From assembly GCA_048213135.1 (NCBI GenBank), contig PS015010.1:1860001-1924000 (forward strand): 64,000 bases of DNA, in the 5' to 3' direction. Below the pieces are notes generated by a model that worked only from the letters and a program-made list of their open reading frames with translations, had not been told where the DNA came from and ran no database searches. This DNA is from Reclinomonas americana ATCC 50394 (Eukaryota). The position numbers were made by a program, and so were the translations under genes. Position 1 is the stretch's first letter, and each line of letters opens with the position of its first letter. Below, piece after piece: positions 11,073 to 35,540 of the stretch.

Positions 11073-11079
11073 CGGCGTA

Positions 11080-12545: not shown

Positions 12546-14255
12546 TTATTTGATCAGTTTTTGTGTGCTCATCACCTCGCCGGCCTGTACTTTGATGATG
12601 TAGAAACCTTTGGCCAGTGCAGCCAGGTTATCGAGCACGATGTTGTTGATACCTTTAGTGAGGGTAGCTTGTTTGCTTACCAGCAGTTTACCTGTATTAT
12701 CGAACAGGCGGACATTGGCCTGGATGTTGGTTTCGCTGGAAACGGTTACGTTCACTTTATCATTGAACGGTGCAGGATAGATACCGGTAATGGTCGTTCC
12801 TTTGATGTTCACAGTAAGCGCAACGATATTGCTGTACTGGAAGTTGGCGTCTTTATCGATCAGTTTCAGCCTGTAATAGTTAACACCTGCATTGGCTTTC
12901 ACGTCGTCGAACTGGTAGTCAACCTGCCTGTCGCTGCTGCCCACTGCATTCACACGGCCGATGGCGCTGAAATGCTGACCGTCGTCGCTGCGCTGAATTT
13001 CGAAGTGGCTGCTGTTGCTTTCCTGCAGGCTGGCCCAGGTAAGGTGAGACCTTCCGTCGATATAAGCACCTTTCAGTGGTTTCAGTACCACAGGCAGGAT
13101 ACCGCTAACGGGTTCCAGCATACAAAGATCGTCGATAGCGAAGCTGATGGTAGAGTTGGTACCAGGCCTGATGTTGAACCTTAATTTTTTGTAAGTGTTT
13201 ACAGGAATGGTTGGTGTTACCACCATTTCAGACCAGGTTCCCGGAGTAGCGCTGATGGTCAGGGTTTGGGTACTGATTGTGGTATAAGAGCTGCTGTTAG
13301 TAGCCGTGGCGCCCTGTACTTCAATCACAATAACCGGGTCGGTTCCGCCTGTATACACTTTAGAGAACCATCCCCTGAAGGTCATACCACCCTGGAAGAA
13401 AGTGTTGGCATTGCTCACCGTGATCACCCTGCTCCATGCGATCGTAGAGGAGTTGGTGATATTGCTAACCACCATCATTTGTTTGCCTGAACGGGGGGCG
13501 ATAGCGCTCCATGCGGAGTTCATGGAATCGGGATTGTTGATCACCCTGTAACGTTCAGCGGTAGAAGTAGTTGTCCAGCGGGTAAGGCCTGTGGTTGCTT
13601 TGGCAGTAGCGCCGGTAGTACCGTTAGGTGTGCTGAAGTTATCAGTACCGTCGCCGTTACCCATTTCAAAACCACCGAAATAGGTTTCCATTGTGGGGGA
13701 AGCGGGATTGGTCACCAGCCTGTTGTCAGTACATGCGGTATAGCAACCTTCTGTAGCGGGTTTAGCGCTGATCCTAACATATTTGGCTTCGTAAGGATTC
13801 AGGTATTCCTCACCACCCCAGATGCTGGTGCCAGGATTGGTTTGCGGATCAAGACCGTCGGTCATCAGCAGCCTGAACTCCACTCCATTCAGTTGGGTGG
13901 TGTAAGCGGGTGTACCTACGTTGGTAATCACCAGGGTTGGCGGTGTATTGGCAGTAACGGGTTTAGACCATCCGCCAACGGTAGCAAAGCTGCGGCCATT
14001 GATGGTAGTAGTACCGTTATTTACATAAGTCCATGCTCCACCCGGTGTAGCGCGGAACTGCCAGTGATAAAAGGAATTCGCACCTGCATTGATCACGAGC
14101 GCAGAAAGAGAAACACTGTTTCCAGCTGTGAAGCAGGGTGGATTGTAGTAAACGATGTTGTGAGCTTTCGATGTTACAGAGAGCAGCATCGAGGAGAAAG
14201 TAAGTAATATTCCCAAGCACAGGGATTTACTTGTTGTTGTAGAGGTCGTCTTCAT
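12546..14255 (-). CDS. T9SS type-A sorting domain secreted protein with an uncharacterised N-terminal region
   Basis: Signal peptide; LPV...NYYRLK...IYPAP...KGFYIIKV..KLIK C-terminal signature. Confidence 0.85.
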   Translation of the reverse strand: MKTTSTTTSKSLCLGILLTFSSMLLSVTSKAHNIVYYNPPCFTAGNSVSLSALVINAGANSFYHWQFRATPGGAWTYVNNGTTTINGRSFATVGGWSKPVTANTPPTLVITNVGTPAYTTQLNGVEFRLLMTDGLDPQTNPGTSIWGGEEYLNPYEAKYVRISAKPATEGCYTACTDNRLVTNPASPTMETYFGGFEMGNGDGTDNFSTPNGTTGATAKATTGLTRWTTTSTAERYRVINNPDSMNSAWSAIAPRSGKQMMVVSNITNSSTIAWSRVITVSNANTFFQGGMTFRGWFSKVYTGGTDPVIVIEVQGATATNSSSYTTISTQTLTISATPGTWSEMVVTPTIPVNTYKKLRFNIRPGTNSTISFAIDDLCMLEPVSGILPVVLKPLKGAYIDGRSHLTWASLQESNSSHFEIQRSDDGQHFSAIGRVNAVGSSDRQVDYQFDDVKANAGVNYYRLKLIDKDANFQYSNIVALTVNIKGTTITGIYPAPFNDKVNVTVSSETNIQANVRLFDNTGKLLVSKQATLTKGINNIVLDNLAALAKGFYIIKVQAGEVMSTQKLIK

Positions 14256-15556: not shown

Positions 15557-18500
15557 TTATCGCTGAACAATGATGGCTTTGGTCACCAGTTGCCCGTTTG
15601 AACTGATACGGAGGAAATACCTTCCGTTGGGCAACCTGCTCATATCCAGGTTCTCGGTCTGGCTGAGCGCTGTGAACTGCTGTTGCTGTACTGTTTTTCC
15701 ATCGGAAGAAATAATACAGAATACGGCAGGTTTGCCGGTCATGGCAGCAGTAACGGTTACATTAATATAACGATCGGCCGGCAGTGGGTAAACCTGCACA
15801 TCGGTGATGCTGCTGTTGAAATTAACACGGCGGATCTCGCTGTAACGGAACTGTCCGTCTTTATCCAGCATCTTCAACCGGTAGTAGTTGAGCCCCGTAA
15901 CCGGCGAGGTATGCAGGAATCCATAACTGCGGCTACCCGATGCCGTTACTGTTCCGATGGCATGGAAATTAATGCCGTCGGTTCCGTATTCCACCACGTA
16001 AGCGGAAAGGTTGGTTTCAATACCTGCTTTCCAGTCCAGGATCACGTGACTGCCCTGTGGCGCAGCGGTAAAGCTTTCCAGTCTTACAGGCAGGATATTA
16101 CTGAATGGCCAGTTGATGATACCCGCATCCATATTCGGAAAGTTGTTACCTGCCACAATGCTGAATGCTCCTGTTCTTCCGGCATTGCCACCGCTGGCGG
16201 TCACATCACTGTCGGTATCGCTTTCCGTACCGCTGTCGAGCGACTGCGTGGCATTGGCACCTGTATTTTGCGGGGCATAGGCGGGGTTGGTACCCGGCGT
16301 GCCTGTTACATCAAAGTTGGGCAGGTTTGCCGAGAAGATGAGGTAGTATCCTGTACCGGCGGGCACATTGGTGATCTGCCACCTGCCGGCACCGTCGGTA
16401 ACCGCGCTGCCGATAGCCGTATTGGACGCGTTGTACAGGGTAACAAGCACACCGGAGATACCGGGCTCGTTGGCATCCTGTATACCGTCTTTATTCAGAT
16501 CGGCCCATACAAAGTTGCCGATGGTAGCGGGGCGGCTAACAGTAATACCGGCATCAATGGTCAGGTCTGTTTCATTGGCGGTCAGCGCAATGAAGGAAGA
16601 CAGTCCTGTTGACGGGTTGGCGTCGTTGTTGGTATTGTCCTGGTTATCGCCGGGTGTATTCTGCTGTGTAAAGAGCATGTTCACCGGCACGGTGGTAAAG
16701 CCCACCATATAATTACCGGGTAACAGGTTAGGGAAATAATAAGCGCCATTGGCATCGGTGATGGCAGTCGCAACCGGATTGGTGGCTTCCGCGCCGGTTA
16801 TGCTGCCGTTATTGTCTGCATCGTAGTAGAGGCTTACCGTGGCCCCGCCAACGCCGGGTTCTCCCGCGGTTTGAATACCGTCATTATTGTAATCGTTCCA
16901 TACAAAATTACCGAGTGCTGCACGGGAACTGATGAGGCCCGCGTCGAGTGTAACATCATTGCGGTTACCCGAAGCCAATGCTACCGTACCGGTTCTTCCA
17001 CTGGTCCTGTCGGCATCACTGCCGGTAAGGGTGGTTGACCCGGAGGCATCTTTCGTGGCAAATTCATATCCTGCAGGCAGATTAGTGAAACCCGTGCTGT
17101 ACGTACCGTCGGCAAGGCCTGCAAAAATGTAATTACCATTGGCATCGGTGGTAGTGGTGGCAATAGCTGTGCCACTGTTGTTGTACAACGTCACTGTAAC
17201 ACCCGGAACACCGGGTTCGCCCACGGTTTGCAACCCGTCGCCATTCAAATCCTGCCATACAAAATTACCTACGGTGTTGGTATTGGCGGGAGGCGTTATA
17301 CCAAGATCGATGCTGAGGTTGTCTTCACCAACAGCCAGTGCGTATACGCCTGTCCGTGAGGCCCCGGCCGGCGCGCCACCTGTTCCCAGGGCGCCGCCAT
17401 CACTGTCAACATTATCGTTGCTGCCGGAATTGGAAGCCGATAAGGCAAAACCGGAGGGCAGGTTACTGAACTGAACCGCGTAATTACCTGCTGCAAGAGC
17501 GGTAAAGCTGTACTGGCCCAGTGCGTTGGTGGTGGTGGTTAATGTAGCGCCATCATCGCCATTGCCAACAATGCCATCGGCACCGGCATTGAGCAGTGTA
17601 ACGGTTACGCCCGCCACACCCAATTCGCCGGTTTCCTGGAGTCCATTGCTGTTGAGGTCGTACCATACAAAGTTGCCGATGCTGGCCAGTCCGCTGGGCA
17701 TGCCCTGGCGTATACCTGCATCCACAGTCGTATTGGTGGCACCTGCTGTAACCGTAGCACTTGCTGTTCTGCCGGTGCCGGGTATCACGTCGCTGTCTGT
17801 TGCATCATTACCCCCCAGGTCCTGGGCAGTGAAACTGTAACCGGATGGCAGGTTGCTGAACCCTGCGGTATAAGAACCTGGTGTAAGATTAGTGAAGAGA
17901 TAGTTGCCGTTAGCATCGGTATAAGTAACCGAAATGGCTGTTCCGGCATTGTTGTATAAAGTAACGGTAATGCCGGACACTCCGGGTTCACCGGCATCCT
18001 GCACACCATTCGCATTCAAATCACTCCATACTTTGTCGCCCAGTGCGCCTGCATTGGCTGCTGGTTGCGAGCTGTAATAACCCGCGTCGGCCGACATATT
18101 TTTAACACCGGCTGATAAAGTGTAGCTGCCGGTATTACCTGCCGAAGGATCCGGATCGCTGTCGATACCATCGGGCAATGTTCCGAACGCAATATTTTGC
18201 GCCGTACGTACCATACCAGCCACGGCTCCGAAATTCAAACGGTAAGTACCGGGTGTAAGCGAAGCAAAAAGATAGTTGCCATATCCATCGGTAGTGGCTG
18301 TTGCCACAGCATTGGCATCATCGCCATTGCCGGCAATACCATCAGGCCCAAAGCCTGGCCTGTACAGGGTTACAGTAACCCCGGGAATACCGGGCTCACC
18401 TGCATCCTGTATACCGTCGCGGTCATTATCATACCAAACCCTGTCACCCAGCGACGCCAGTGCTGTTGATACGGACCTGATGCCTGCATCCACGTTCACG

Positions 18501-21500
18501 ATCTGCTGGCCGGTTGTTACGGTAAAGGTTCCGGTAATACCATTGGTACCCGCATCGCTGTCGGCATCGCTTTCACCTGCTGTACCGGTTCCTGTGCCGT
18601 TGGCACCCTGGTTGGCGGTAACGAAAGTAGTGCCCGGAGGCGCTGAAAATCTTACACTGTAAGTGCCGGGTGTTACATTGGTGAAAAGATAATTACCATT
18701 GGCGTCGGTAATGGTTGTGGCTACTGTATTGCCGAGGTTATCGAGCAGACTAACGGTAACGCCTGCCACACCGGGTTCGCCTGCTGTTTGCAGGTTATCG
18801 TTATTGGTATCGAACCATACCCTGTTGCCTACACTGGCGGTGGCTGCAGGACTGTTAAAGATGATACCCGCATCAATGTTCCTTTCATTTTCACCGGCAG
18901 ATAAAGTAATGGTATAGGACTGGCCTGTGGTAGCGTTCACGTCGCTGCCTGTAGTTACAGGGGCAGTGCCCGCGGTATTGTCAACCGTATTGGTTTGCGT
19001 GGTGAACTGGTAATTGGCAGGAAGTGTTACCACTACACTGTAAGAGCCTGCCGCCAGGTTATCGAAAAGATAATTACCATAGGCATCAGTTACCGTAGTG
19101 GCTACCAGCGTGGTGCCGGTATACAATGCAACAGCTACTCCCGCAACACCGGGTTCGCCGGTATCCTGTACGCCGTCTTTATCATCGTCTCTCCAAACCC
19201 GGTCGCCTACAGAGGCAAGGGGTTTAAAGCCAAAGTCAATATCATAATTGGTGCTGCCATAGTCTCCCGTGGTTATGACGACCTGCGGGATGCTGCTGGT
19301 CATTACCGCATCATTATCACTTAGCCCGGCGGCGCCATTGCCGATCTTATTGGTTCTTGTCAATTGTAACCCCGCCAGGTTGCCCGCAGCTAACGGGCCT
19401 CCTTCCCCGTTATTGGCGCTGGCATCCCAGTCGTACCCCGTTCCGCTTGTAGCGAGGCGTACACGATAACTGGTGTTAGGTAATAAAGCCACGCCATAGT
19501 TGATACCTGTAGCGTCCGTTCCTGTCATGGAGGTGAGGTACCAGCTGCCGGTAGCGCTGGTGAGCACGGTGGTGGCTTGCACGCCTGCGGTAGAAGGATC
19601 GCTGTCTACAGCGTTGCCATTCGCATCTACCAATTCCAGCAACACATTCGCGATGCCGGATTCTCCTGCATCCTGTATGCCGTTACCATTGGTATCGTTC
19701 CATACCCGGTTGCCGATGCTGATGGGCGCATTGTATTCGATGAGTTCTATATCACCCAGGCCAATGCCTTTACCGGAATAGCCGGTATTGTTATCATTGC
19801 TGTTGGATACTTCGATGGCATGATCTCTTGGATTGTCACCATTGGTGCTCGAAAAGAAGTCTACCCCCTGCTGCCATACGCCGTTGGGGTCCATCGAGGT
19901 CACTGCGATCTCTCCGGTGCCCGGCAGCGATGTTATGGCTCCCGCTGTTGTGTTCAGGTGATAGTTGGCGTTCTGGCTGGCGGCAACGCTGTACAGGTTA
20001 TCATGGAAATAAAATTCACCACCGCCCGGGCCCTGGCCATTGCCTGCGCCGGATGTGGCTGTCTTGCTGCTGGAAGGCCCTTCTTTACCATTCGACTCCA
20101 GTTCATAAGTACAAGAGGAAGTACGGTAAGCACGCAGGGTCTCTCCCATAGCGGTAGCCACTGCCATAGTAGTGCCTGACAACATATAATTGAAGTGACC
20201 GAACTGGTCGCCTACCCTGTCCCTAAGACCGATCACCATCGAACCGTCAGACGGATCGAATTCAATACCGCAGAAGATGGCCTGGTTCAGGAAGTAACGG
20301 TTGGAACCGTTCCAGGTAAGGGATGTAGTAAAACCGGTATTCTTCCATACTTTGAAAGTTTCGTTGTAGTTATCTGTGTTAAGCCCGCGATCGAAATTGA
20401 GCGGAAACTGCAGCACAGGAGCCGAAGCCCAGGTATTTGTGGCGGGATCATATTCAAATACATAAGCCCAGAGATCGGTGTACTCCGGGTTGCCGGTGTT
20501 GTTATCTGTAGTGGTGGTACCGGTTTTTTCTCCCGTAGTCGCGGCACCTACATAGAGTTTGCCGCGGTAAAATTTCAAACCGAAAGGACGGAGAAAACCT
20601 TTGGTACCGTCATAAAATTGTGAATTGTCGGAAGCATAGGTAACCGCGTAACCACCACCCAGGCTGCTCCGCAATGGCGGATTGGGTATGGTCAGCGCAT
20701 TTACGGAAGACACTCCCGTAGGATTGGTCACACTGTTGAGGTTAAGCTGGTACACTTTCCTGTCGTACAAATTCACGGAATACAGTGCCTTTCCGTCATC
20801 TGAAATCTCAAGGTCTCCCAGGCCATACATGCCTGTCTGTGCAACAGCGGCCGGATCATTGCTTCTTGCCGTGGCATCGTTGGTAAGTCCGCGGGCTGTA
20901 TTACTTCCCACAACCCCCATACCCGAAGGATAGCTGGTAACAGGATCGGTAGTACCCAGGAAAGTGATGGTAGTTGCGGAGCCTACAGTGTAAGATGTAC
21001 CTGACCCGTAAGCAGGTCCGCCGTTTGTACGGGTATAATAACCGTTATTATCCATATCATAGAACTGAACACTGGCCGCGGATGCGGGAGTACCCAACGC
21101 CGTATCTAATATATAAATGCCGCCGCTGCCCAATGGGCCGAGGCCGGTATGCCGTTTAATAAAAGCACTGGTAAAAAGTTTACCCGCCTGTTTGCTGTAA
21201 GCAAGACCGTAACAACTGCCGATATAACTGGCGGCCATGGTACGGGAGACTGGTGTGGTAGCGCCAACACTGGTATTGGCCGCATTATAGGGAATACCCT
21301 GTATGGCCGGCCTTGTTGTTGCTGTGCCCGCTGTTCCCGCGGTAGGATTACCCTGCACGGAGCGGATCACATAATAATAAGGATTGAGGTTACTCACATA
21401 TTGCGACGACATATTTACCGGGAAATTGATACCCGTACTGCCACCGGTAACAAACTGCACATTACTGTTCCCGGCTATGGCAACACCCGGGCTCACCAGG

Positions 21501-21874
21501 TCATTGTCGGTATTCAGACAACTCATATTCGTGGGAAGAATGAACTCCAGCCGCACCGAAGCACCAGATGCCACAAAACCGGTATTGGAACCCGGCGTGC
21601 CATTATAAGCAGTTCCCGAAGCAGGAATGCTGTAAGCGCCCGACGCGTTGGTCGTAAAAGAAGCAATGAGCGCATCGCTGCTGTTGTACACATTTACGAT
21701 CACGCCAGCAATAAGCGGTTCGATCATAGGCGCAGCTGTTTGCCTGGTGCCATTGTTGTTAAAATCACGGAAAGCAGTGCCGGATAACTGCGCCTTTAGG
21801 GGATGGGCGGCCAGCACACAAAGGATCAAAACGGACAGAGCAATGCCTGCCAATTTAGGTAGAGGGTTTTTCAT
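15557..21874 (-). CDS. Giant T9SS-secreted surface protein with ~10 SdrD B-like repeats and an N-terminal putative beta-propeller region
   Basis: Nine G[ND].VW.D...[DN]G.Q..GE.G repeats plus one N-terminal copy; T9SS C-terminal domain; start moved to ATG 21874. Confidence 0.88.
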   Translation of the reverse strand: MKNPLPKLAGIALSVLILCVLAAHPLKAQLSGTAFRDFNNNGTRQTAAPMIEPLIAGVIVNVYNSSDALIASFTTNASGAYSIPASGTAYNGTPGSNTGFVASGASVRLEFILPTNMSCLNTDNDLVSPGVAIAGNSNVQFVTGGSTGINFPVNMSSQYVSNLNPYYYVIRSVQGNPTAGTAGTATTRPAIQGIPYNAANTSVGATTPVSRTMAASYIGSCYGLAYSKQAGKLFTSAFIKRHTGLGPLGSGGIYILDTALGTPASAASVQFYDMDNNGYYTRTNGGPAYGSGTSYTVGSATTITFLGTTDPVTSYPSGMGVVGSNTARGLTNDATARSNDPAAVAQTGMYGLGDLEISDDGKALYSVNLYDRKVYQLNLNSVTNPTGVSSVNALTIPNPPLRSSLGGGYAVTYASDNSQFYDGTKGFLRPFGLKFYRGKLYVGAATTGEKTGTTTTDNNTGNPEYTDLWAYVFEYDPATNTWASAPVLQFPLNFDRGLNTDNYNETFKVWKNTGFTTSLTWNGSNRYFLNQAIFCGIEFDPSDGSMVIGLRDRVGDQFGHFNYMLSGTTMAVATAMGETLRAYRTSSCTYELESNGKEGPSSSKTATSGAGNGQGPGGGEFYFHDNLYSVAASQNANYHLNTTAGAITSLPGTGEIAVTSMDPNGVWQQGVDFFSSTNGDNPRDHAIEVSNSNDNNTGYSGKGIGLGDIELIEYNAPISIGNRVWNDTNGNGIQDAGESGIANVLLELVDANGNAVDSDPSTAGVQATTVLTSATGSWYLTSMTGTDATGINYGVALLPNTSYRVRLATSGTGYDWDASANNGEGGPLAAGNLAGLQLTRTNKIGNGAAGLSDNDAVMTSSIPQVVITTGDYGSTNYDIDFGFKPLASVGDRVWRDDDKDGVQDTGEPGVAGVAVALYTGTTLVATTVTDAYGNYLFDNLAAGSYSVVVTLPANYQFTTQTNTVDNTAGTAPVTTGSDVNATTGQSYTITLSAGENERNIDAGIIFNSPAATASVGNRVWFDTNNDNLQTAGEPGVAGVTVSLLDNLGNTVATTITDANGNYLFTNVTPGTYSVRFSAPPGTTFVTANQGANGTGTGTAGESDADSDAGTNGITGTFTVTTGQQIVNVDAGIRSVSTALASLGDRVWYDNDRDGIQDAGEPGIPGVTVTLYRPGFGPDGIAGNGDDANAVATATTDGYGNYLFASLTPGTYRLNFGAVAGMVRTAQNIAFGTLPDGIDSDPDPSAGNTGSYTLSAGVKNMSADAGYYSSQPAANAGALGDKVWSDLNANGVQDAGEPGVSGITVTLYNNAGTAISVTYTDANGNYLFTNLTPGSYTAGFSNLPSGYSFTAQDLGGNDATDSDVIPGTGRTASATVTAGATNTTVDAGIRQGMPSGLASIGNFVWYDLNSNGLQETGELGVAGVTVTLLNAGADGIVGNGDDGATLTTTTNALGQYSFTALAAGNYAVQFSNLPSGFALSASNSGSNDNVDSDGGALGTGGAPAGASRTGVYALAVGEDNLSIDLGITPPANTNTVGNFVWQDLNGDGLQTVGEPGVPGVTVTLYNNSGTAIATTTTDANGNYIFAGLADGTYSTGFTNLPAGYEFATKDASGSTTLTGSDADRTSGRTGTVALASGNRNDVTLDAGLISSRAALGNFVWNDYNNDGIQTAGEPGVGGATVSLYYDADNNGSITGAEATNPVATAITDANGAYYFPNLLPGNYMVGFTTVPVNMLFTQQNTPGDNQDNTNNDANPSTGLSSFIALTANETDLTIDAGITVSRPATIGNFVWADLNKDGIQDANEPGISGVLVTLYNASNTAIGSAVTDGAGRWQITNVPAGTGYYLIFSANLPNFDVTGTPGTNPAYAPQNTGANATQSLDSGTESDTDSDVTASGGNAGRTGAFSIVAGNNFPNMDAGIINWPFSNILPVRLESFTAAPQGSHVILDWKAGIETNLSAYVVEYGTDGINFHAIGTVTASGSRSYGFLHTSPVTGLNYYRLKMLDKDGQFRYSEIRRVNFNSSITDVQVYPLPADRYINVTVTAAMTGKPAVFCIISSDGKTVQQQQFTALSQTENLDMSRLPNGRYFLRISSNGQLVTKAIIVQR

Positions 21875-22081
21875 TATGTCAGGTTTTTCAAAAGAAATGG
21901 CATTCCATATCACCGGTCAAAAAACCAGTGCATACGGGTAGTGGTGATCATCAGAGGAGGAAGTTGTTTTCGAAGGACTGGATAGGGTTAGCCGGGGTAA
22001 GCGGCTGTATATATGATCATCATGAAGATGAAAAATATTATTGTCTATTTTCGCTACACAAGCAACAACACAACCGGGTAT

Positions 22082-23191
22082 ATGTACTTATTTCACAAAA
22101 GATGTTTCAACACTGTAGCCCCGGTTATGCTTTTTTTTATTGTAACCGCTTCTTTTCTGAACGCCTGTGATGCATTCGAAAAAAAAGCCGGCAGGGAAAT
22201 CATTTCTTCTTCAACCGACTCTTTAAAAATTGAGTTGGGAAGACGGCTCTTTTATGATAAAGATCTTTCACTCAACAGCACTAAATCCTGCGCCAGCTGC
22301 CATAATCCGTCATTTGCTTTCAGCGATGGTTACAGAACCAGTACTACCGCTCTCGGGCAAACGCTGCTGCATAATGCACCCGGATTGATCAATACCACGT
22401 TCTACCGGTTTTATGACTGGGCCGATACCGGCATCAATCATTATTCAAAACAGATCAAACGGCCACTGTACAGCAATCACCCTGTCGAACTTGGCTTAAA
22501 CGTAGAAATACAACGTAAAATTGCGTTGCTCGAAAAAAATAATACTTATAAAAATTTATTCGCAGGTATTTATACGTCCAACCCCGCCATTACAACGGGA
22601 AATATAGAAGATGCGATCATCGCTTTTGTGCAGTCCCTGCAATCCTTTTGTTCGCCTTATGATCATTTTATGGCAGGCGACATTTCCGCCATGACCAGCG
22701 AAGCACAACAGGGTATGCAGCTTTTTTTCTCTGCCCGGCTGCAATGCGGCAGTTGCCATAAAGCCCCGTTGTTCACTTCCAATGACAGCAGGTATGCGTT
22801 ACCGGCAGACAGTATTTATTTCAATACAGGGCTATATAATATTAAAGGGCATTACCCTGCGGGAGATGAAGGTCTGTTTGAACATACCCGCCGTGCCAGT
22901 GACATCGGCAGGTTTAAAACACCTTCGCTTCGCAATATTGCTCTTACAGCCCCCTATTTCCACGACGGCAGTGCCGCTTCTCTTACCGAAGTGATCGATA
23001 TCTACAGCCGGGGCGGAAGAAAGATAGTTGCCGGTCCCACGACAGGTGATGGAAAGGACAACCCGCATAAGGACCGCCGGGTGAACGGCTTTACACTTAA
23101 CACGGCGGAAAAAAGGGCGCTCATCGCTTTTCTTTATGCCCTTACCGATTCCTCTGTACTTACCAACCCGGCCTTTCAGCCTTTAAATTAA
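22082..23191 (+). CDS. Di-heme enzyme of the MauG/MbnH (bCcP superfamily) type, probable lipoprotein
   Basis: CASCH and CGSCH heme motifs; NTGLYN...YP..D.GL; FKTPSLRNIALTAPYFHDGS...VIDIYSRGGR..GDG..NP; lipobox LNAC; start uncertain (22013-22127). Confidence 0.85.
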   Translation: MYLFHKRCFNTVAPVMLFFIVTASFLNACDAFEKKAGREIISSSTDSLKIELGRRLFYDKDLSLNSTKSCASCHNPSFAFSDGYRTSTTALGQTLLHNAPGLINTTFYRFYDWADTGINHYSKQIKRPLYSNHPVELGLNVEIQRKIALLEKNNTYKNLFAGIYTSNPAITTGNIEDAIIAFVQSLQSFCSPYDHFMAGDISAMTSEAQQGMQLFFSARLQCGSCHKAPLFTSNDSRYALPADSIYFNTGLYNIKGHYPAGDEGLFEHTRRASDIGRFKTPSLRNIALTAPYFHDGSAASLTEVIDIYSRGGRKIVAGPTTGDGKDNPHKDRRVNGFTLNTAEKRALIAFLYALTDSSVLTNPAFQPLN

Positions 23192-23257
23192 CATGATGAA
23201 GGAAAAAGCAACACCGGAAAATAAAAAGCTTTCTATAATTTGCAGCCACACATGCAT

Positions 23258-25003
23258 ATGAACCGAACTGCTTCTCTACTCCTGTTTATCCTGCTGGTCA
23301 TTTTCACGGGTTGCAACAACCAGGCTCCCACTGTAACCAATAGCGGGTCCGATAAAGATGCCCGGGAATCCATATTGGCGGATGACAGTGCAGTCAACAC
23401 CAGTTCTCCGCTGGTACAGGCATATACAGAGAAAGCTACAGCCGCATTGCAAAGCAGCATACCAGTATTGCCGCTCAGCCAGGCAGACAGCAGCCAGGCC
23501 AAGGCACAGCGCATCGCCCTCGCCGACCGGCGCTTTACCCAAAATTGTTTTGATCCGAAAACAGGCAAAGCCTGCCGCAACGAAATATTCAATATATACG
23601 CGGCCAGACCACAGGAGGTGCCTAAAGCATATGCTACTAATAAAGTTTACCGGGTAGAATTATATAACTATGCGTTAAACCTTACCACTGTTGGGTGGGT
23701 TGATCTTGCCTCCAGTCAGTTGATCCGTGTAAGCACCTTACCCGAAACACAACCCGAGATACCCGCCCACCTGAAAGACATGGCCCTGCAGATTGCCGTA
23801 AACGCTCCTGAAGTGATAAAGGCCCTGGGCTATAAACCCGGCGAATCAGCAGCACTGATGGCCAATACCAAAACAGCGCTGAACGCCACCAAATGCGAAA
23901 GAAGCATGCACCTGTGCGTGGCGCCCACTTTCATTAAAGGCGACAGGGCTTTGTGGGCAATCGTTGACCTCACCGATCATAAACTGGTAGGCATACGCTG
24001 GACAAGTGTTGGCGAAACCGGTCCCGCGCCACGCATCAGTGAAAGAAAACTGCAGTTCGACAAGATCATGAGCTGCAACTGCAAAACCATTACCCCGCTC
24101 AATAAGGATGGATGGAAACTGAATTACGTGATCACCAGTTCCGACGGTTTACGCATCAGTGAAGTATATTATAATAACAGGCTGATCATACTGAACGCCA
24201 AACTTGTTGACTGGCATGTGAGCTACAGTGGCACGGAAGGATTTGGTTACAGCGATGCAGCCGGTTGCCCGGAATTCAGCCAGGCGGCAGTAGTGGCCGT
24301 AAGCGAACCTAAAGTAAAAGAGCTGGAAGAAGGCGGAAAGAAGCTGGGCTTTGTACTGGAGCAAACCTTCAGGAGCGAACAATGGCCCAGGCCCTGCAAC
24401 TATAATTATATACAGCGATACGAGTTCTATACCGATGGCCGCTTTCGCATAGCCTGCGGCAGTTTGGGCCGGGGATGCGGCAACAATGGCACTTACCGCC
24501 CCGTTACCCGTATCCTGTTTGCCGAGCAGCAAGATTTTGCTGAATGGAACGGCAGCAGCTGGACGGCATGGGACCGTGAAAAATGGCAACTGCAAAACGC
24601 ACAAACTGCGTATACGCCTGAGGGTTATCAATACCGTGTTGGCGGGCAAAAAGGATTTTACCTGCAACCGGGCAATGGGCGTTTCAGTGATGGCGGAAGA
24701 GGCGACAATGCTTTTGTATATGTTACAAAATACCATACCGATAAAGACGAAGGAGAAACCGATATGGTAACCATTGGCCCCTGCTGCAATACCGACTATC
24801 ACCAGGGCCCGGAAAAATTCATTGAACCCAATCCCGAGCCTTTAGGCGGATCACAGGTAGTTGTATGGTATGTGGCACAACTGAAAAACGACGACAGGCC
24901 CGGGTTTGAATACTGCTGGGCAGAGTCGCTGCTCGACAAAGGCGTTTATAAGACGAAAGCTTATCCCTGTATGAGCGGGCCGATGTTTATTCCGATTAGA
25001 TGA
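23258..25003 (+). CDS. Cys-rich lipoprotein with a copper amine oxidase-like architecture lacking the His copper ligands
   Basis: Lipobox TGC; N2/N3-like motifs (VDLASS..QPEI..PEVIKALG; AIVDL); catalytic-domain-like WKLNY..DGLRISEVYY, YSDAAG, CNYNYIQRYEFYTDG, VYVTKY, VVVWY. Confidence 0.65.
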   Translation: MNRTASLLLFILLVIFTGCNNQAPTVTNSGSDKDARESILADDSAVNTSSPLVQAYTEKATAALQSSIPVLPLSQADSSQAKAQRIALADRRFTQNCFDPKTGKACRNEIFNIYAARPQEVPKAYATNKVYRVELYNYALNLTTVGWVDLASSQLIRVSTLPETQPEIPAHLKDMALQIAVNAPEVIKALGYKPGESAALMANTKTALNATKCERSMHLCVAPTFIKGDRALWAIVDLTDHKLVGIRWTSVGETGPAPRISERKLQFDKIMSCNCKTITPLNKDGWKLNYVITSSDGLRISEVYYNNRLIILNAKLVDWHVSYSGTEGFGYSDAAGCPEFSQAAVVAVSEPKVKELEEGGKKLGFVLEQTFRSEQWPRPCNYNYIQRYEFYTDGRFRIACGSLGRGCGNNGTYRPVTRILFAEQQDFAEWNGSSWTAWDREKWQLQNAQTAYTPEGYQYRVGGQKGFYLQPGNGRFSDGGRGDNAFVYVTKYHTDKDEGETDMVTIGPCCNTDYHQGPEKFIEPNPEPLGGSQVVVWYVAQLKNDDRPGFEYCWAESLLDKGVYKTKAYPCMSGPMFIPIR

Positions 25004-25138
25004 TGTGACAATTTTGGATGTGCGGATGCGTGAATGTGCAGATATGCGGATGTTGACGCCGCCTGGTCGCTGACCAGCGGTGTCATGCTGAATGACCGCA
25101 ATTTTGAATTTTGACTTTTTAATTTTGAATTTATTCAA

Positions 25139-26068
25139 ATGAAGCCCAACTCCCGTTTGCTGCTGATTGCTCTTCTCACCATCCTCTCTTCCTGCGGGGA
25201 AAAGGTGGAGGAAGATGAGGCCTTCGGCATTGGTCTTATTCCCTGCCAGCAACAGCCGAAGTTCCTGGGCAGTACCGGGCTTGATCCCCGGCGGAGTGCC
25301 TTCTCTACATCCGAACGAAAAATAAAAGGACTTGTACTGGTGCAGGTGCCCGCCAATCCCAACGACACCGCAGGACGGAAAACATGGCAACACCCCTCCT
25401 GGGGGCAGTTTGGCTGGATGGGTTCCATCACCACCGATGATAACGGCAACGCTTACACGGCACCGGTGCCGGTGATCAATATCCTCGACAACCCGCCCGC
25501 CAAACAAAACACCATTTATAAAACCGACGGTCAAACCGGCGAAATGAAAGCACTGGTGGAACTGCCCTTTTACGATAAGAATGAAACCGAAAATGTATTC
25601 GGGATACTCGGACTTTATTTCGATTGCCATGCCCGGATGCTCTATGCTTCCAGCGTGGCGGCCTCAACGAGGGACGCGGAAAAAGGCGTTATCTACGCTG
25701 TTGAACCCGAAGGCGGTAAAATAAAAGACAAACTGAGTGGCAGGGATGCCATCGGCCTTTGTGTATGTGGTATTACAGGAGAAAAAAGATTGTATTTCGG
25801 CAGCAGCCGCAACTCTACCGTCTATTCTGTTGGGCTGACCAAATCCGGAAATTTTACCGGCTCTGTAAAAGAAGAATTTTCTTTGGATATGATGGGTCCG
25901 AGGGGAGATGATAAAGCCCGTCGTATCCGGGTGGACAAGACGGGCGATATGATCATTTTTGGCGTAGAATTTAACTATAATCTCACCGCACCTACCGAAA
26001 AACAGGAAACCGTTTACCGCTTCAGGTACAGCGCCGAAGACAAGAAGTGGTTACCTGTTGCTCCCTGA
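25139..26068 (+). CDS. Hypothetical lipoprotein, probable beta-propeller
   Basis: Lipobox SSC; repeated blade-like motifs (ITTDDNGNAY, LYFDCHARMLYAS, KRLYFG, IRVDKTGDM). Confidence 0.65.
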   Translation: MKPNSRLLLIALLTILSSCGEKVEEDEAFGIGLIPCQQQPKFLGSTGLDPRRSAFSTSERKIKGLVLVQVPANPNDTAGRKTWQHPSWGQFGWMGSITTDDNGNAYTAPVPVINILDNPPAKQNTIYKTDGQTGEMKALVELPFYDKNETENVFGILGLYFDCHARMLYASSVAASTRDAEKGVIYAVEPEGGKIKDKLSGRDAIGLCVCGITGEKRLYFGSSRNSTVYSVGLTKSGNFTGSVKEEFSLDMMGPRGDDKARRIRVDKTGDMIIFGVEFNYNLTAPTEKQETVYRFRYSAEDKKWLPVAP

Positions 26069-28621
26069 TCAGGCTTCGGTTGTACTCTTTTTCTTAGCAG
26101 GGCCTTCCGATTTAATACTGAACTTGATCTTCGAATTTTCTTTATCGAGGTCGGCAATCATAACATCACCGGCTTTTATCGTCATGTTCAGAATTTCTTC
26201 TGCCAGCGGGTCTTCCAGGTATTTCTGAATGGCCCTGTGCAGTGGTCGTGCACCGAATTGAGAATCGTAACCTTTATCGGCAATGAAGTCCTTGGCTTCC
26301 GGTGTCAGCTCCATGGAGAAGCCGAGGTTGGCCAGGCGTTTCATTACACCTTTCATCAGGATGTCGATGATCTCGAAAATATCATCCTTGCTGAGCGAGT
26401 TGAACACCACCACGTCGTCGATCCTGTTCAGGAACTCGGGACTGAAGGTACGTTTCAGCGCTTTTTCAATCACGGCTTTATTGTTCTCTTCCGCATTCTC
26501 CATACGGGCCGCGGTAGCGAAACCTACACCATCGCCAAAATCTTTCAGCTGGCGGGCGCCGATATTCGAGGTCATAATGATAAGCGTATTCTTGAAATCC
26601 ACTTTACGGCCCAGGCCATCGGTCAGCATACCATCGTCGAGCACCTGCAGCAGGATGTTATAAATATCCGGGTGTGCTTTTTCGATCTCGTCGAGCAGGA
26701 TTACGCTGTATGGTTTACGTCTAACCCTTTCCGTTAGCTGTCCGCCTTCTTCATAACCTACATACCCGGGAGGCGCACCAATGAGGCGGCTTACGGTGAA
26801 TTTTTCCATGTACTCACTCATGTCGATCCTGATTAGCGCATCTTCGCTGTCGAACATATGACGGGCGAGCGAGCGGGCCAGTTCGGTTTTACCCACGCCT
26901 GTCGGCCCCAGGAAGATGAACGTACCGATCGGTTTCTTAGGATCTTTCAGGCCCACACGGTTACGCTGGATGGCTTTCACCACTTTGGATATAGCGTCCT
27001 GCTGGCCGATCACGGCACCTTTCAGATCGTCGGCCATTCGGCGGAGTTTCTCCGTTTCGGCCTGCACCATGCGCTTTACCGGTATGCCGGTCATCATGTT
27101 CACCACTTCGGCGATATCTTCTTCCTCAATCGGGAAACGCTTGTGTTTGCTTTCTTCCTCCCAGTCGCTTTTGGCTTTTTCCAGTTCTTCCTGCAAACGT
27201 TTTTCGGTATCGCGTAAAGAAGCGGCTTCTTCAAACTTCTGGCTCTTCACCACTTTATTCTTTTCCACTTTGATCTCTTCGATCTTTTTCTCAAGTTCGA
27301 TGATCTCGTTAGGAACATTGATGTTCTTGATGTGTTTGCGTGCACCCACTTCATCCAGTACGTCGATGGCTTTATCGGGCAGCAGGCGGTCGGTCATATA
27401 CCTGTCGCTCAGTTTTACGCAGGCCTCAATGGCTTCCTGGCTGTACGACACGTTATGGTAGTCTTCGTATTTGTTCTTGATGTTGTTGAGTATCTCTATG
27501 GTCTCTTCAACAGAAGGCTGATCCACGATCACTTTCTGGAAACGACGATCGAGTGCGCCGTCTTTTTCAATGTGCATCCTGTATTCATCCAGCGTGGAAG
27601 CGCCAATGCATTGCAGTTCGCCACGGGCCAGGGCTGGTTTGAAAATATTCGACGCGTCGAGTGAACCACTGGCGCCACCTGCACCCACGATGGTGTGTAT
27701 CTCATCAATGAACAGGATCACGTCACGGTTCTTTTCCAGTTCGTTCATGATCGCTTTCATACGTTCTTCAAACTGGCCGCGGTATTTGGTACCGGCAACG
27801 AGTGCTGCCAGGTCAAGACTTACCACTCTTTTATCAAACAGCACACGGGATACTTTACGCTGAACAATACGCAGCGCCAGGCCTTCCACAATGGCTGTTT
27901 TACCCACACCGGGTTCACCGATGAGGATGGGGTTATTCTTTTTACGACGGGAAAGTATCTGCGATACCCTTTCAATCTCGTTCTCACGACCTACGATCGG
28001 GTCAAGTGATCCATTCTCGGCCAGGCGGGTAATATCACGACCGAAATTGTCGAGCACCGGCGTTTTTGTTTTAGGCTGGTTAGCGCCTGCACCCCGCTGT
28101 GATTTCGGTTGCTGCCCGTACTGTTTTCTTTCTTCATCAAATTCATCATCCCCTTCGTCGCTGAATTCCGCGGAAGGCGGGTTGCTCGTCACAAAGCCCA
28201 GTTCATTTTTAAATACGTCGTAATCCACGTCAAACTGGTTCAGGATCTGGGTAGCAATATTTTCCTTGTTTTTCAGGATCGACAGCATCAGGTGTTCACT
28301 TTCCACCAGTGCGCTTTTTTGCGCTTTGGCTTCCAGTACCGTGATGCGGATCACCTTTTCCGCCTGCTTGGTAAGGGGAAGGGAATTAATGTTGGCGATG
28401 TTCTTACCGGTCTTATCCTTTACCGCCATTTCTATTTCCTTGCGTAGTTCAAAAAGGTCGATATTGAGTGACTTGAGTATTTTGACTGCCGTATTCTCTC
28501 CATCCCTGATCAGTCCCAGGACCAGATGCTCTGTTCCAATGAAATCATTTCCCAACCGGAGTGCTTCTTCGCGGCTGTAAGAGATGATCTCTTTTACCTG
28601 TGCTGAGAAATTGTTGTCCAT
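26069..28621 (-). CDS. clpC: ATP-dependent Clp protease ATP-binding subunit ClpC
   Basis: Clp-N repeats, [11 protein letters not shown] coiled coil, GPTGVGKT; start moved to ATG 28621. Confidence 0.95.
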
Positions 28622-28660
28622 TTCGGTTAAATTTAGCTTGTACAATAATACTGATAATTT

Positions 28661-28668
28661 CAAAGATA
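28661..28668 (-). promoter_or_regulatory. -7 element TATCTTTG for clpC
   Basis: Exact TAnnTTTG about 40 nt upstream of the clpC ATG. Confidence 0.5.
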
Positions 28669-33996: not shown

Positions 33997-34081
33997 TTTT
34001 TTAGTCGACATCCTTTTAGCAGGTGTACAATAATGTATAAATGCAGAAACCACAGTAGTACTAAAGCCGAATCAAGGAACC

Positions 34082-34180
34082 GACCGGAAAACGCGATGTA
34101 ATCGTTTTCCGGGGTCTTTTGGCGCCTGTCCCGATGAGGAACGATATCGGGAGTTCTTTTTTGGACAAGCTAAAAAGAAC
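34082..34180. repeat. Three consecutive hairpins between the two arrays
   Basis: CCGGAAAACG/CGTTTTCCGG; TCCCGAT/ATCGGGA; GTTCTTTTT/AAAAAGAAC. Confidence 0.65.
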
Positions 34181-34296
34181 ATAAAAAATAGATGTTAGAA
34201 GTATGATGTGGTGCCCTCCACTAATCGAAAAATCCGCTAAGTTGCCCCTCGAAGAACGCCAGGTTAACCTTCCCGAACTCTGAAAAACCTAATGGA

Positions 34297-34664: not shown

Positions 34665-34802
34665 CATGGCTTCTTCCTTCATTCCTTCATTCTTTCATTC
34701 TTTCCTTCCTTCATTTAACATTACTGTATTGCACAAACCCGCACCCGTATTTTACATGGAAATGGTTAACTTGGAGCGACCAAAACCAAATACATTTGTA
34801 CC

Positions 34803-35213: not shown

Positions 35214-35233
35214 CCCTTTTCTTAAAATATTAT

Positions 35234-35267
35234 AAAAAAGCCGCATAAAATTGCGGCTTTTTGTTTT
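35234..35267 (+). terminator. Terminator after the XRE gene
   Basis: AAAAAAGCCGCA-TAAAAT-TGCGGCTTTTTGTTTT. Confidence 0.8.
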
Positions 35268-35479: not shown

Positions 35480-35540
35480 ATTTTTAAGAGAACTCAATTT
35501 TCAACGAGCCCAAGACTATTAACAATAAATCAATTTTATT

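What the first reader, a model, noticed from the sequence alone, without database searches (positions are those of the whole stretch)
22082..26068. MauG/MbnH-type di-heme enzyme paired with a copper-amine-oxidase-fold protein that keeps the quinone-precursor Tyr but lacks the copper ligands
Seen in sequence: the 23258..25003 protein follows copper amine oxidase (CAO) motifs in order along its length. These include N2/N3-like segments, the base-Asp motif YSDAAG (cf. YLDSG) and WPRPCNYNYIQRYEFYTDG (cf. the TPQ consensus TxxNY[DE]Y..W.F..DG; Tyr at 24401-24403). Where CAOs carry HxH it reads TYRPVTRI, and after VVVWY the third His is absent. The adjacent di-heme enzyme has Tyr at the distal-ligand position (VIDIY, as MauG Tyr294, where bCcP has Met), and no MbnP or MauAB-like partner is in the window. 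Established: CAOs make TPQ autocatalytically using Cu; MauG and MbnH oxidise aromatic residues of a partner protein through high-valent heme. Inference: the di-heme enzyme may install a Tyr- or Trp-derived quinone or Cys cross-link (Trp and Cys sit 6 and 2 residues before the Tyr) in a copper-independent CAO homologue, which would be a new cofactor-biogenesis system.
Basis: partly seen in the sequence, partly recalled or inferred. Interest (0 to 1): 0.88.

Follow-up and report, generated by a model that had tools for sequence, protein, structure and literature searches.

The report
Copper-less amine-oxidase homologue with di-heme partner
A conserved bacterial gene trio pairs a peroxide-using di-heme enzyme with a relative of copper amine oxidases that has lost its copper site but kept its cofactor tyrosine, which hints at an undescribed way of building or re-oxidising a protein-made cofactor.

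Summary
Gene 23258..25003 encodes a secreted lipoprotein that is a remote but real copper amine oxidase (CAO) homologue: hhalign 91.8 %, E 7.5e-7, 444 columns, against ≤0.4 % for reversed or shuffled controls. It keeps the residues aligned with the E. coli TynA cofactor Tyr, base Asp and neighbouring Tyr residues. All three copper-ligand His are missing. The four family-specific invariant residues are Cys337, Cys380, Cys407 and Pro518.

Gene 22082..23191 is an MbnH-type di-heme enzyme. In this window it has Tyr where peroxidases have the Met heme ligand.

A distinct clade of di-heme genes sits directly upstream of the CAO-like gene in 27 of 35 informative loci. In a 201-genome sample its four best matches all fall in genomes that carry the CAO-like gene.

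Three results weaken it:
- Eight of 16 Chloroflexota genomes carrying an intact CAO-like gene gave no di-heme match.
- Nine of 29 adjacent di-heme enzymes have Phe in place of the Tyr ligand.
- A β-propeller gene (25139..26068) is linked more often than the di-heme gene.

No quinone, cross-link or protein contact was shown. The structure and complex predictors were unavailable. The family is uncharacterised.

The parts
22082..23191 (+). MbnH-family (MauG-type) di-heme enzyme, 369 aa, with an N-terminal signal sequence. An alternative ATG start lies at 22013.
   Evidence: PF03150 E 4.9e-37. TIGR04039 341.7 bits against a cut-off of 362.85. PDB 6e1c E 2.2e-68 over residues 46-366.
22289..22303 (+). 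First CxxCH heme-binding motif (residues 70-74).
   Evidence: Motif positions 70 and 222 were found. The Cys and His are invariant in alignment A3.
22745..22759 (+). Second CxxCH heme-binding motif (residues 222-226).
23003..23005 (+). Tyr308 of VIDIY, at the position of the Met heme ligand of canonical peroxidases.
   Evidence: Aligned with the Met of 2c1u and identical to 6e1c. It is Tyr in 20 and Phe in 9 of 29 adjacent Bacteroidota enzymes. It is Tyr in 4 of 4 adjacent Chloroflexota enzymes.
23258..25003 (+). Copper-amine-oxidase-fold homologue, 581 aa, predicted lipoprotein (…FTGC). It lacks the three copper-ligand His.
   Evidence: A lipobox-like motif occurs in 104 of 181 full-length relatives, against 7 of 181 in a control stretch.
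24254..24256 (+). Asp333, aligned with the catalytic-base Asp of TynA (Asp413 in precursor numbering).
   Evidence: Asp in 268 of 276 rows.
24266..24268 (+). Cys337, a family-specific invariant residue (TynA has Tyr417 here).
   Evidence: Cys in 276 of 277 rows.
24395..24403 (+). Cys380-Asn381-Tyr382. Tyr382 aligns with the TPQ-precursor Tyr of TynA (Tyr496). Cys380 is family-specific (TynA has Gly494).
   Evidence: Tyr382 is present in 273 of 277 rows and Cys380 in 273 of 277.
24476..24478 (+). Cys407 in the GRGCG loop, a family-specific invariant residue. The loop replaces the longer TynA segment that carries HxH.
   Evidence: Cys in 274 of 276 rows.
25139..26068 (+). β-propeller lipoprotein, 309 aa. 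It is the gene most often adjacent to the CAO-like gene.
   Evidence: The family profile hits PDB 3vgz (YncE) at E 1.7e-5. The Atlas neighbours are SGL/NHL-type propellers. It is adjacent in 31 of 37 loci, in 9 of the 12 loci L069-L080 (8 further genomes, since L069 repeats L020), and in 4 of 4 independent Bacteroidota loci.
15557..21913 (-). Divergently transcribed 2118-aa surface protein. It has an N-terminal domain of about 700 aa with no known family, SdrD_B repeats with 9 matched stretches, and a type IX secretion tail. It is a loosely associated fourth gene.
   Evidence: A relative of the N-terminal 600 aa lies in the flanks of 15 of 37 loci and 1 of 4 independent loci.
21914..22081 (.). 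Shared intergenic region between the surface-protein gene and the three-gene operon. I infer that it holds a divergent promoter.
   Evidence: Gene positions and the sequence read. No promoter test was run.

Best explanation
The three same-strand genes 22082..26068 form a conserved extracytoplasmic module. It consists of a MauG/MbnH-type di-heme enzyme, a copper-amine-oxidase-fold lipoprotein and a β-propeller lipoprotein.

The CAO-like protein has lost the His3 copper site that normal CAOs use to turn their own Tyr into topaquinone and to re-oxidise it. It has kept the amine-oxidising half of the active site: the cofactor-position Tyr382, the base Asp333, Tyr323, Asn381 and Tyr384. It has also gained three invariant Cys next to that site.

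The mechanism I think most likely is that the di-heme enzyme docks on the CAO-like protein and uses H2O2 and high-valent heme to withdraw electrons over a distance, as MauG does with pre-methylamine dehydrogenase and MbnH with MbnP. This would oxidise Tyr382 to a quinone-type cofactor, possibly thioether-linked to Cys380 or Cys337. The product would be a copper-independent quinoprotein that oxidises an unknown amine at the cell envelope, with the propeller as a partner subunit.

Shown: the homology, the residue pattern, and the gene linkage with its clade specificity. Inferred: the contact between the proteins, the modified residue, any quinone, the substrate, and the role of the propeller.
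For: Homology and active site:
- hhalign gave 91.8 %, E 7.5e-7, over 444 columns, with clean controls.
- Ten of the 14 family-invariant residues are identical in TynA at the aligned positions. They include those aligned with the cofactor Tyr, the base Asp and their Tyr/Asn neighbours.
- These residues are kept in 268-276 of about 277 rows, so the site is under selection.

Copper ligands: absent.

Linkage:
- The di-heme gene lies directly upstream in 27 of 35 informative loci.
- It is adjacent in 4 of 6 independently sampled Bacteroidota genomes that carry the CAO-like gene.

Clade specificity:
- A 100/100 split separates 27 adjacent di-heme genes from 5 others. Three of those five were checked and lie beside MbnP-like genes.
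- The same clade also holds the unlinked copies of two genomes whose CAO-like gene stands alone.
- In 201 Bacteroidota genomes the four best matches to the di-heme profile (419.7-304.7 bits) all lie in genomes with the CAO-like gene. The next best match scores 268 bits.

Recurrence: divergent Chloroflexota CAO-like genes have MauG-type di-heme neighbours in 4 of 16 genomes, all four with the Tyr ligand. Di-heme adjacency lies on both sides of the deepest split of the CAO-like tree.

Precedent: according to passages read, MauG-type enzymes have His-Tyr ligation and oxidise residues of a partner protein.
Against: - Eight of 16 Chloroflexota genomes with the CAO-like gene gave no di-heme match at all (G001 and G002, G009, five genomes). 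Their CAO-like proteins still keep every key residue. The queries and thresholds differed between these calls, and the completeness of the genomes is not known.
- One Bacteroidota genome (G140) also lacks a di-heme gene of this clade.
- The Tyr heme ligand is Phe in 9 of 29 adjacent Bacteroidota enzymes, with no compensating conserved His, Met or Tyr column.
- The Asp or Glu that follows the cofactor Tyr in CAOs is not conserved here (Asn 154, Arg 68 of 277).
- The three invariant Cys could instead be disulfides or a metal site.
- No amine-catabolic genes flank the cluster. The neighbours scanned are housekeeping genes.
Confidence: 0.4

Rival explanations
1. Redox partner rather than maturase. 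The CAO-like protein makes or holds its redox centre by other means. The di-heme enzyme replaces copper and O2 in the oxidative half-reaction: it takes electrons from the reduced cofactor at every turnover and passes them to H2O2. The pair would then act as an amine:peroxide oxidoreductase.
For: - The copper site serves re-oxidation as well as biogenesis in CAOs (recalled), and it is missing here.
- Tight operon linkage fits a stoichiometric partner as well as it fits a maturase.
- The homologues that do without the di-heme enzyme could use another electron acceptor.
- Variation of the Tyr ligand is easier to tolerate in an electron carrier or peroxidase than in an enzyme that must form bis-Fe(IV).
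Against: The characterised members named in the passages read (MauG, MbnH) modify a partner once rather than cycling with it. The rival leaves open how a Tyr would become a quinone without copper.
Confidence: 0.2
2. The three invariant Cys form a new metal site, or a redox-active disulfide/thiol centre, that replaces the His3 copper site. The protein would then mature by itself, and the di-heme enzyme would be an accessory, for example supplying or removing peroxide or oxidising the metal.
For: - Apart from Pro518, the family-specific invariant residues are exactly three Cys. They lie 4 residues after the base Asp, 2 residues before the cofactor Tyr, and in the loop that replaces the HxH segment.
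- This explains why whole clades do without the di-heme gene.
Against: - These are exported proteins, in which Cys usually pair. A fourth nearly invariant Cys, Cys275 (276 of 279 rows), would allow two disulfides.
- The rare losses hint at pairing: Cys380 and Cys407 are lost together in 2 rows, and Cys337 and Cys380 together in 1 row.
- This rival does not explain the clade-specific linkage to the di-heme gene.
Confidence: 0.15
3. The CAO-like protein carries no quinone. It is a binding or scaffold protein, or a pseudo-enzyme, of a cell-surface assembly with the propeller and the giant secreted protein. The di-heme enzyme would modify another residue, for example a Trp to kynurenine to build a metal site as in MbnP, or would cross-link Tyr residues.
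For: - The di-heme enzyme's closest family is MbnH, whose described product is kynurenine in a copper-binding protein.
- Several Trp are invariant or nearly so.
- Relatives carry PKD, Ig-like and dockerin tails typical of surface proteins.
- A giant type-IX-secreted protein is divergently encoded next door.
Against: - The invariant Trp residues (286, 376, 537) are also Trp in TynA, so they look structural.
- No His is invariant. The best-conserved are His218 (46 of 54) and His320 (47 of 54).
- Near-total conservation of the Asp and Tyr that a CAO needs for catalysis is hard to explain for a scaffold.
Confidence: 0.15
4. There is no direct functional relation. The di-heme protein is a periplasmic peroxidase that merely shares an operon with the other two genes.
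For: It belongs to the bacterial cytochrome c peroxidase superfamily, and its Tyr ligand is not conserved.
Against: - The clade is found almost only in genomes that have the CAO-like gene.
- It sits immediately upstream on the same strand.
- Different di-heme subfamilies recur beside divergent CAO-like genes in another phylum.
Confidence: 0.05

Closest known systems
Copper amine oxidases (Pfam PF01179; E. coli TynA, Arthrobacter AGAO)
   Same: Profile-level homology across the D2, D3 and catalytic domains. Identical residues at the positions aligned with the TPQ-precursor Tyr, the Asn before it, the Tyr two residues after it, the base Asp, two further active-site Tyr and several structural Trp, Gly and Arg residues. 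Like TynA it is exported.
   Different: All three copper-ligand His are missing, and the HxH segment is deleted. The acidic residue after the cofactor Tyr is not conserved. It has three extra invariant Cys and a vicinal Cys-Cys pair that is lost together in 8 of 8 cases. It scores below the Pfam threshold. It has a di-heme gene and a propeller gene as constant neighbours.
MbnH/MbnP (di-heme enzyme that makes kynurenine in a copper-binding protein)
   Same: The di-heme enzyme's best family and best solved relative. Two CxxCH motifs and, in this window, the Tyr ligand. A gene for a presumed substrate protein lies next to it.
   Different: No MbnP-like gene is present. The neighbour is a 581-aa CAO-fold protein. 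The enzymes form a separate clade from the MbnP-linked ones. The score is just below the family cut-off. The Tyr ligand is Phe in 9 of 29.
MauG with methylamine dehydrogenase (tryptophan tryptophylquinone biogenesis)
   Same: The same logic is proposed here: a His-Tyr di-heme enzyme uses H2O2 to build a quinone in an amine-oxidising enzyme. That enzyme also has a β-propeller subunit (the heavy chain; recalled).
   Different: The similarity to MauG is only distant (TIGR03791 130.8 bits against a cut-off of 443.85; PDB 3l4m E 2.5e-15). The target fold and the target residue (Tyr rather than two Trp) differ. No homology of the propeller to the dehydrogenase heavy chain was shown.
Flavobacterium PhoX with a MauG-like peroxidase gene
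   Same: Another Bacteroidota operon that pairs a MauG-like c-type cytochrome peroxidase with a secreted lipoprotein enzyme. Its authors suspect a role in cofactor formation (passage read).
   Different: The partner protein is different, the function is likewise unproven, and it was not compared by sequence here.

Membership tests
Copper amine oxidase (PF01179 and its N2/N3 domains) | Reaches the Pfam gathering score for the catalytic domain. | tested here: not met
   21.4 bits against 27. The best score among 54 relatives is E 2.1e-6. No N2 or N3 Pfam hit.
Copper amine oxidase (PF01179 and its N2/N3 domains) | Homology over the D2-D3-D4 architecture. | tested here: met
   hhalign 91.8 %, E 7.5e-7, 444 columns, TynA 124-714. 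Controls gave <=0.4 %. The fold itself was not modelled.
Copper amine oxidase (PF01179 and its N2/N3 domains) | Cofactor-precursor Tyr in the N-Y-(D/E)-Y motif. | tested here: inconclusive
   Asn381, Tyr382 and Tyr384 align and are conserved. The D/E position reads Asn (154), Arg (68) or others of 277 rows.
Copper amine oxidase (PF01179 and its N2/N3 domains) | Catalytic-base Asp. | tested here: met
   Asp333 aligns with TynA Asp413. Asp in 268 of 276 rows.
Copper amine oxidase (PF01179 and its N2/N3 domains) | Three His copper ligands. | tested here: not met
   TynA His554 and His556 fall in a gap. No His follows VVVWY, and Asn544 lies at the matching offset.
Copper amine oxidase (PF01179 and its N2/N3 domains) | Mature topaquinone and amine oxidase activity. 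| not testable with these tools
   This needs protein chemistry.
MbnH family di-heme enzyme (TIGR04039) | Reaches the curated family score. | tested here: not met
   341.7 bits against 362.85, which is just below the cut-off.
MbnH family di-heme enzyme (TIGR04039) | Two CxxCH motifs and full-length likeness to the solved enzyme. | tested here: met
   Motifs at residues 70 and 222. 6e1c E 2.2e-68 over residues 46-366. That 6e1c is MbnH is recalled; the tool names it 'Di-heme enzyme'.
MbnH family di-heme enzyme (TIGR04039) | An adjacent MbnP-type copper-binding partner. | tested here: not met
   No MbnP-like sequence in the window (best E 0.48). The MbnP-linked enzymes form a different clade.
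MauG-type (as opposed to canonical) bacterial cytochrome c peroxidase | Tyr instead of Met as the sixth ligand of the electron-transfer heme. | tested here: met
   In the window, Tyr308 aligns with the Met of 2c1u. The rule itself comes from a passage read. Across the clade the residue is Tyr in 20 and Phe in 9 of 29. Ligation itself was not tested.
MauG (TIGR03791) | Family score and mauA/mauB neighbours. | tested here: not met
   130.8 bits against 443.85. No methylamine dehydrogenase family appeared among the 24 window ORFs scanned with Pfam. No dedicated MauA or MauB search was run.
YncE-type seven-bladed β-propeller (NF052280) | Family score. | tested here: not met
   18.4 bits against 400. 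There is only general propeller likeness: PDB 3vgz E 1.7e-5 and SGL/NHL-type Atlas neighbours.

The most novel reading that the evidence does not exclude
This would be a third kind of quinoprotein amine-oxidising enzyme, built on the copper amine oxidase fold but free of copper. A MauG/MbnH-type di-heme enzyme would oxidise Tyr382 with H2O2, and an invariant neighbouring Cys (Cys380 or Cys337) would add to the resulting quinone. The product would be a cysteine-tyrosine quinone, a sulfur analogue of lysine tyrosylquinone that has not been described. The enzyme would work with a β-propeller subunit, as the two known amine dehydrogenases do. Lineages without the di-heme gene would then reveal a second, still unknown route to the same cofactor.
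Probability: 0.15. Interest if true: 0.9.

Novelty: new variant of a known kind. Interest (0 to 1): 0.72.

Why it matters
According to the review read, TPQ and LTQ are listed as autocatalytic cofactors, whereas the Trp-derived TTQ and kynurenine need the di-heme enzymes MauG and MbnH. That the autocatalytic route uses the enzyme's own copper is recalled knowledge.

This family has at least 1842 members and 279 clusters at 50 % identity. It keeps the Tyr-quinone active site, has no copper site, and travels with a di-heme enzyme. It therefore allows a direct test of whether di-heme enzymes also build, or re-oxidise, Tyr-derived cofactors.

Either outcome is informative. One would be a new biogenesis route and perhaps a new cofactor. 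The other would be a copper amine oxidase fold put to a different use, with a tri-Cys centre.

The family has no name, no solved structure, and no mention in the literature searched. It occurs in cultured Dyadobacter strains, so the experiment is practical.

Tried and rejected
Tools that were not available:
No model, no Foldseek comparison and no view of the Cys geometry could be obtained.
- Complex prediction of the CAO-like and di-heme proteins was never accepted because the queue was full (26 calls). Nothing can be said about binding.

Searches that led nowhere:
- A single-sequence search of the PDB found nothing relevant.
- The propeller profile shows no likeness to the GSDH propeller that is fused to some CAO-like proteins (probability 0.3 %).
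- The N-terminal domain of the giant protein has no family in Pfam, NCBIfam or the PDB.
- No conserved substitute maturase was found around the Chloroflexota genes. Only the CAO-like and propeller genes are shared there.
- No fusion of a CAO-like protein with a di-heme domain was seen. Only 10 long forms of the 150 best representatives were scanned, and the search of proteins over 1017 aa found 2 proteins, both fused to GSDH.

Void result: the script had a two-residue indexing error. Its output is void, and one search replaces it.

Expression: contigs of two metatranscriptome runs from one study, 90-99 % alike, lie on parts of all three genes. DNA carry-over cannot be excluded and contigs cannot show an operon transcript, so I do not count this as evidence.

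Literature:
- The searches found no paper that links MauG- or MbnH-type enzymes with CAO-like proteins, and none on a Cys-Tyr quinone.
- The CAO phylogeny paper has no occurrence of 'Bacteroid', 'Chloroflex' or 'histidine' in the passage search.
- The two primary MbnH papers are not held.
- Supplements, for example of the peroxidase network paper read, are closed. A prior mention there cannot be excluded.

Full report
**What is there.** The window carries three same-strand genes: a 369-aa di-heme gene (22082..23191, alternative start 22013), a 581-aa gene (23258..25003) and a 309-aa gene (25139..26068). They are flanked by a divergently oriented 2118-aa gene (15557..21913, minus strand) and by a convergent gene at 26069..28663, which looks like a Clp-type ATPase from its sequence and was not scanned. 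The other flanking genes that I scanned are housekeeping: cytidylate kinase, LytB, an HtrA-type protease, tRNase Z and an esterase. The cluster is therefore an island among unrelated genes. The gaps between the three genes are 66 and 135 bases. By inspection, all three products begin with signal sequences. The second and third have lipoprotein boxes.

**The di-heme gene.** It matches Pfam CCP_MauG (E 4.9e-37). Its best curated family is the MbnH family, TIGR04039, at 341.7 bits, just under the cut-off of 362.85. MauG itself scores only 130.8 against a cut-off of 443.85. Its best solved relative is 6e1c (E 2.2e-68, full length), which shares the sequence around VIDIYS. In the printed alignment with the canonical peroxidase 2c1u, the Tyr lies opposite the Met of that enzyme. 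A passage read states that canonical enzymes have His-Met ligation at the electron-transfer heme and MauG-type enzymes have His-Tyr. No MbnP-like sequence is in the window.

**The CAO-like gene.**
- On its own the protein gives only a sub-threshold Pfam hit to the copper amine oxidase domain (E 1.3e-4) and nothing in the PDB.
- It belongs to a large unnamed family. At least 1842 proteins match at E<=0.001 among the 8000 candidates scored, all called hypothetical where named. There are 279 cluster representatives at 50 % identity.
- Of 54 diverse members (alignment A1), 39 hit PF01179 at E<=0.01.
- A profile of A1 ranks five CAO or lysyl-oxidase structures first in the PDB, at E 0.016-1.3. The remaining six hits are ATP-synthase b subunits and look like noise.
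- Profile-profile comparison with E. coli TynA, taken from the annotated K-12 record, gave 76.7 %. With 15 TynA relatives it gave 91.8 %, E 7.5e-7, over 444 columns from TynA residue 124 to 714.
- A reversed copy and five column-shuffled copies of the CAO alignment reached at most 0.4 % and 47 columns.
- The protein-language-model search agrees. The nearest clusters are hypothetical proteins partly carrying PF01179, followed by true amine oxidases at 0.89.
- The homology is real but distant. The fold itself could not be modelled.

**Active-site pattern.** Ten of the 14 invariant residues of A1 are identical in TynA at the aligned positions:

| Family residue | TynA residue (precursor numbering) |
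|---|---|
| Trp286 | Trp358 |
| Tyr323 | Tyr399 |
| Asp333 | Asp413 |
| Tyr382 | Tyr496 |
| Tyr384 | Tyr498 |
| Gly404 | Gly518 |
| Gly406 | Gly524 |
| Tyr413 | Tyr541 |
| Arg418 | Arg561 |
| Trp537 | the Trp of VVW |

- From my own knowledge of the E. coli enzyme, whose signal peptide has 30 residues, Tyr496 is the topaquinone precursor, Asp413 is the catalytic base, and Tyr399 is the Tyr that bonds to the cofactor. His554, His556 and His719 are the copper ligands.
- The two His of HxH fall in a 15-residue gap, because the family has a much shorter loop (GRGCG…TYRPV) there. The third His lies beyond the alignment, where the family reads WYVxQxxN.
- The four invariant residues that are not shared with TynA are Pro518 and three Cys. 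Cys337 lies four residues after the base Asp. Cys380 lies two residues before the cofactor Tyr. Cys407 lies in the shortened loop.
- In a survey of 320 rows these residues hold up: Tyr382 273/277, Asp333 268/276, Cys337 276/277, Cys380 273/277 and Cys407 274/276.
- Twelve rows, mostly fragments or divergent sequences, depart at a key site.
- The acidic residue that follows the cofactor Tyr in CAOs is not kept.
- A vicinal Cys509-Cys510 pair is lost together in 8 of 8 cases.
- Which Cys pair with which remains open.

**Linkage to the di-heme gene.**
- In 37 loci from one-genome-per-species contigs, a di-heme gene lies directly upstream on the same strand in 27. Two of the other ten have no upstream DNA, which gives 27 of 35 informative loci.
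- A tree of these enzymes plus seven di-heme genes found elsewhere in two Bacteroidota genomes and one Chloroflexota genome shows a 100/100 split. On one side are the 27 adjacent genes, counting the window's. With them are the two unlinked copies from genomes G004 and G005, whose CAO-like gene stands alone. On the other side are five genes. The three of these that I checked lie beside MbnP-like genes.
- In an even sample of 201 Bacteroidota genomes, five carry the CAO-like gene. The four best matches to the di-heme profile (419.7, 419.2, 383.9 and 304.7 bits) are in four of those five genomes. Three are adjacent and one lies 190 kb away on the same contig. The next best match, in a genome without the CAO-like gene, scores 268 bits.
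- A second sample of 201 genomes added one more genome with the adjacent pair.
- The four independent adjacent loci all read di-heme, CAO-like, propeller on one strand.
- The family is sparse: 5 of 201, 3 of 201 and 13 of 201 genomes in the three samples.

**Where the link fails.**
- Sixteen Chloroflexota genomes with the CAO-like gene were examined.
- Eight gave no di-heme match at all: G001 and G002 with the family model, G009 with the window protein, and five genomes with the A3 profile at E<=1e-10.
- Four have an adjacent di-heme gene. One is of the MbnH-like type and three are of a shorter, more distant type. All four have the Tyr ligand.
- The other four have only unlinked matches.
- The genomes without a di-heme gene form one or two clades next to the Bacteroidota clade. 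Adjacency occurs on both sides of the midpoint root (a quick tree, and the root is for drawing only). This reads as an old association that was lost in one lineage.
- The proteins of that lineage keep every key residue, so they presumably work without the enzyme.
- The completeness of these genomes is not known.
- One Bacteroidota genome (G140) also lacks a di-heme gene of this clade.
- Within the adjacent Bacteroidota enzymes the Tyr ligand is Phe in 9 of 29, with no compensating conserved column. In three of them the Trp between the hemes is Leu.

**The third and fourth genes.**
- The 309-aa gene is a β-propeller. Its family profile hits YncE (3vgz) at E 1.7e-5, and its language-model neighbours are SGL/NHL-type propellers.
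- It is adjacent in 31 of 37 loci, which is more often than the di-heme gene. It also accompanies the CAO-like gene in the lineage that lacks the di-heme gene.
- Two clusters of long proteins fuse a CAO-like part to a GSDH-type propeller. That propeller shows no detectable kinship to the 309-aa family.
- Other long relatives end in PKD, Ig-like or dockerin domains, which fits an extracellular location.
- The N-terminal 600 aa of the giant type-IX-secreted protein recur in the flanks of 15 of 37 loci and 1 of 4 independent loci. This is a loose association with no known family.

**Reading.**
- The residue pattern is that of a CAO which kept the reductive, amine-oxidising half of its site and lost the metal that normally makes and recycles the cofactor.
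- A specific clade of peroxide-activated di-heme enzymes travels with it. The characterised relatives of that clade oxidise residues of a neighbouring gene's product.
- The most economical mechanism is that this enzyme takes over the oxidative chemistry on the CAO-like protein. I favour cofactor formation at Tyr382, possibly involving an invariant Cys, at a confidence of 0.4.
- Catalytic re-oxidation of the cofactor (0.2), a self-sufficient tri-Cys centre (0.15) and a non-quinone role (0.15) remain live alternatives.
- The lineage without the enzyme and the Phe variants are the main arguments against a strict maturase model.

**Novelty.** The searches, and the passages read, gave no description of this family or of this pairing. 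A passage on Flavobacterium PhoX notes a comparable unexplained pairing of a MauG-like gene with a secreted enzyme. The primary MbnH papers are not held and supplements were closed, so a passing mention there cannot be excluded. I rate the finding as a new variant of known kinds: the CAO superfamily, and di-heme enzyme plus partner systems. There is a modest chance of a new cofactor.

Noticed in passing
window 25004-25138: The spacer between the CAO-like and propeller genes holds an imperfect GC-rich hairpin at about 25056-25080, seen by eye. It also holds an AT-rich stretch of about 35 bases (25098-25133) that many otherwise unrelated contigs of four runs match. This may be a short dispersed repeat or a terminator-like element.
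   Followed up: no
window 34001-42000: A low-GC stretch (0.35-0.44, against about 0.48 elsewhere). It encodes an 8xMP octameric membrane protein and two ORFs with no family. It may be an acquired island.
   Followed up: no
window 44496-55783 (minus strand): A polysaccharide-utilisation-type locus: a SusD-like protein, a TonB-dependent receptor, an alginate lyase, two BD-FAE esterases and a large MBG-domain protein.
   Followed up: no
proteins P0169 and P0392 (no locus): Two protein clusters of about 1110 aa fuse a CAO-like part with all key residues to a PF07995 glucose/sorbosone-dehydrogenase-type six-bladed propeller. This is a natural fusion of the CAO-like fold with a propeller of another family.
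   Followed up: partly
L015:7715-12690: In one genome whose CAO-like gene has no adjacent di-heme or propeller gene, the next two ORFs (814 aa and 710 aa) look like a metal-transporting P-type ATPase and a cbb3-type oxidase subunit. I judged this only from their N-terminal sequences.
   Followed up: no
L001, L002, L007 (di-heme genes, about 4900-5950): In three adjacent di-heme enzymes the Trp that lies between the two hemes in this superfamily is replaced by Leu (…FDLAN…). In a further nine enzymes the Tyr ligand is Phe. The redox wiring therefore varies within the clade.
   Followed up: partly
L034:669-5093 and 10109-13638; L087:15750-18001; L088:1-2945: Large related proteins lie within a few kilobases of the CAO-like/propeller pair in Chloroflexota as well. 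The L087 protein begins like an SdrD_B repeat (seen by eye). This recalls the giant surface protein beside the window's cluster, although its N-terminal domain gave no match in L034; L087 and L088 were not tested.
   Followed up: no
G300:C9:6171-7145 (L081): A Chloroflexota genome holds a second, high-scoring di-heme gene of this clade (393 bits) in a 550-aa open frame. Its extra N-terminal part appears hydrophobic (seen by eye), and it is unlinked to the CAO-like gene.
   Followed up: no
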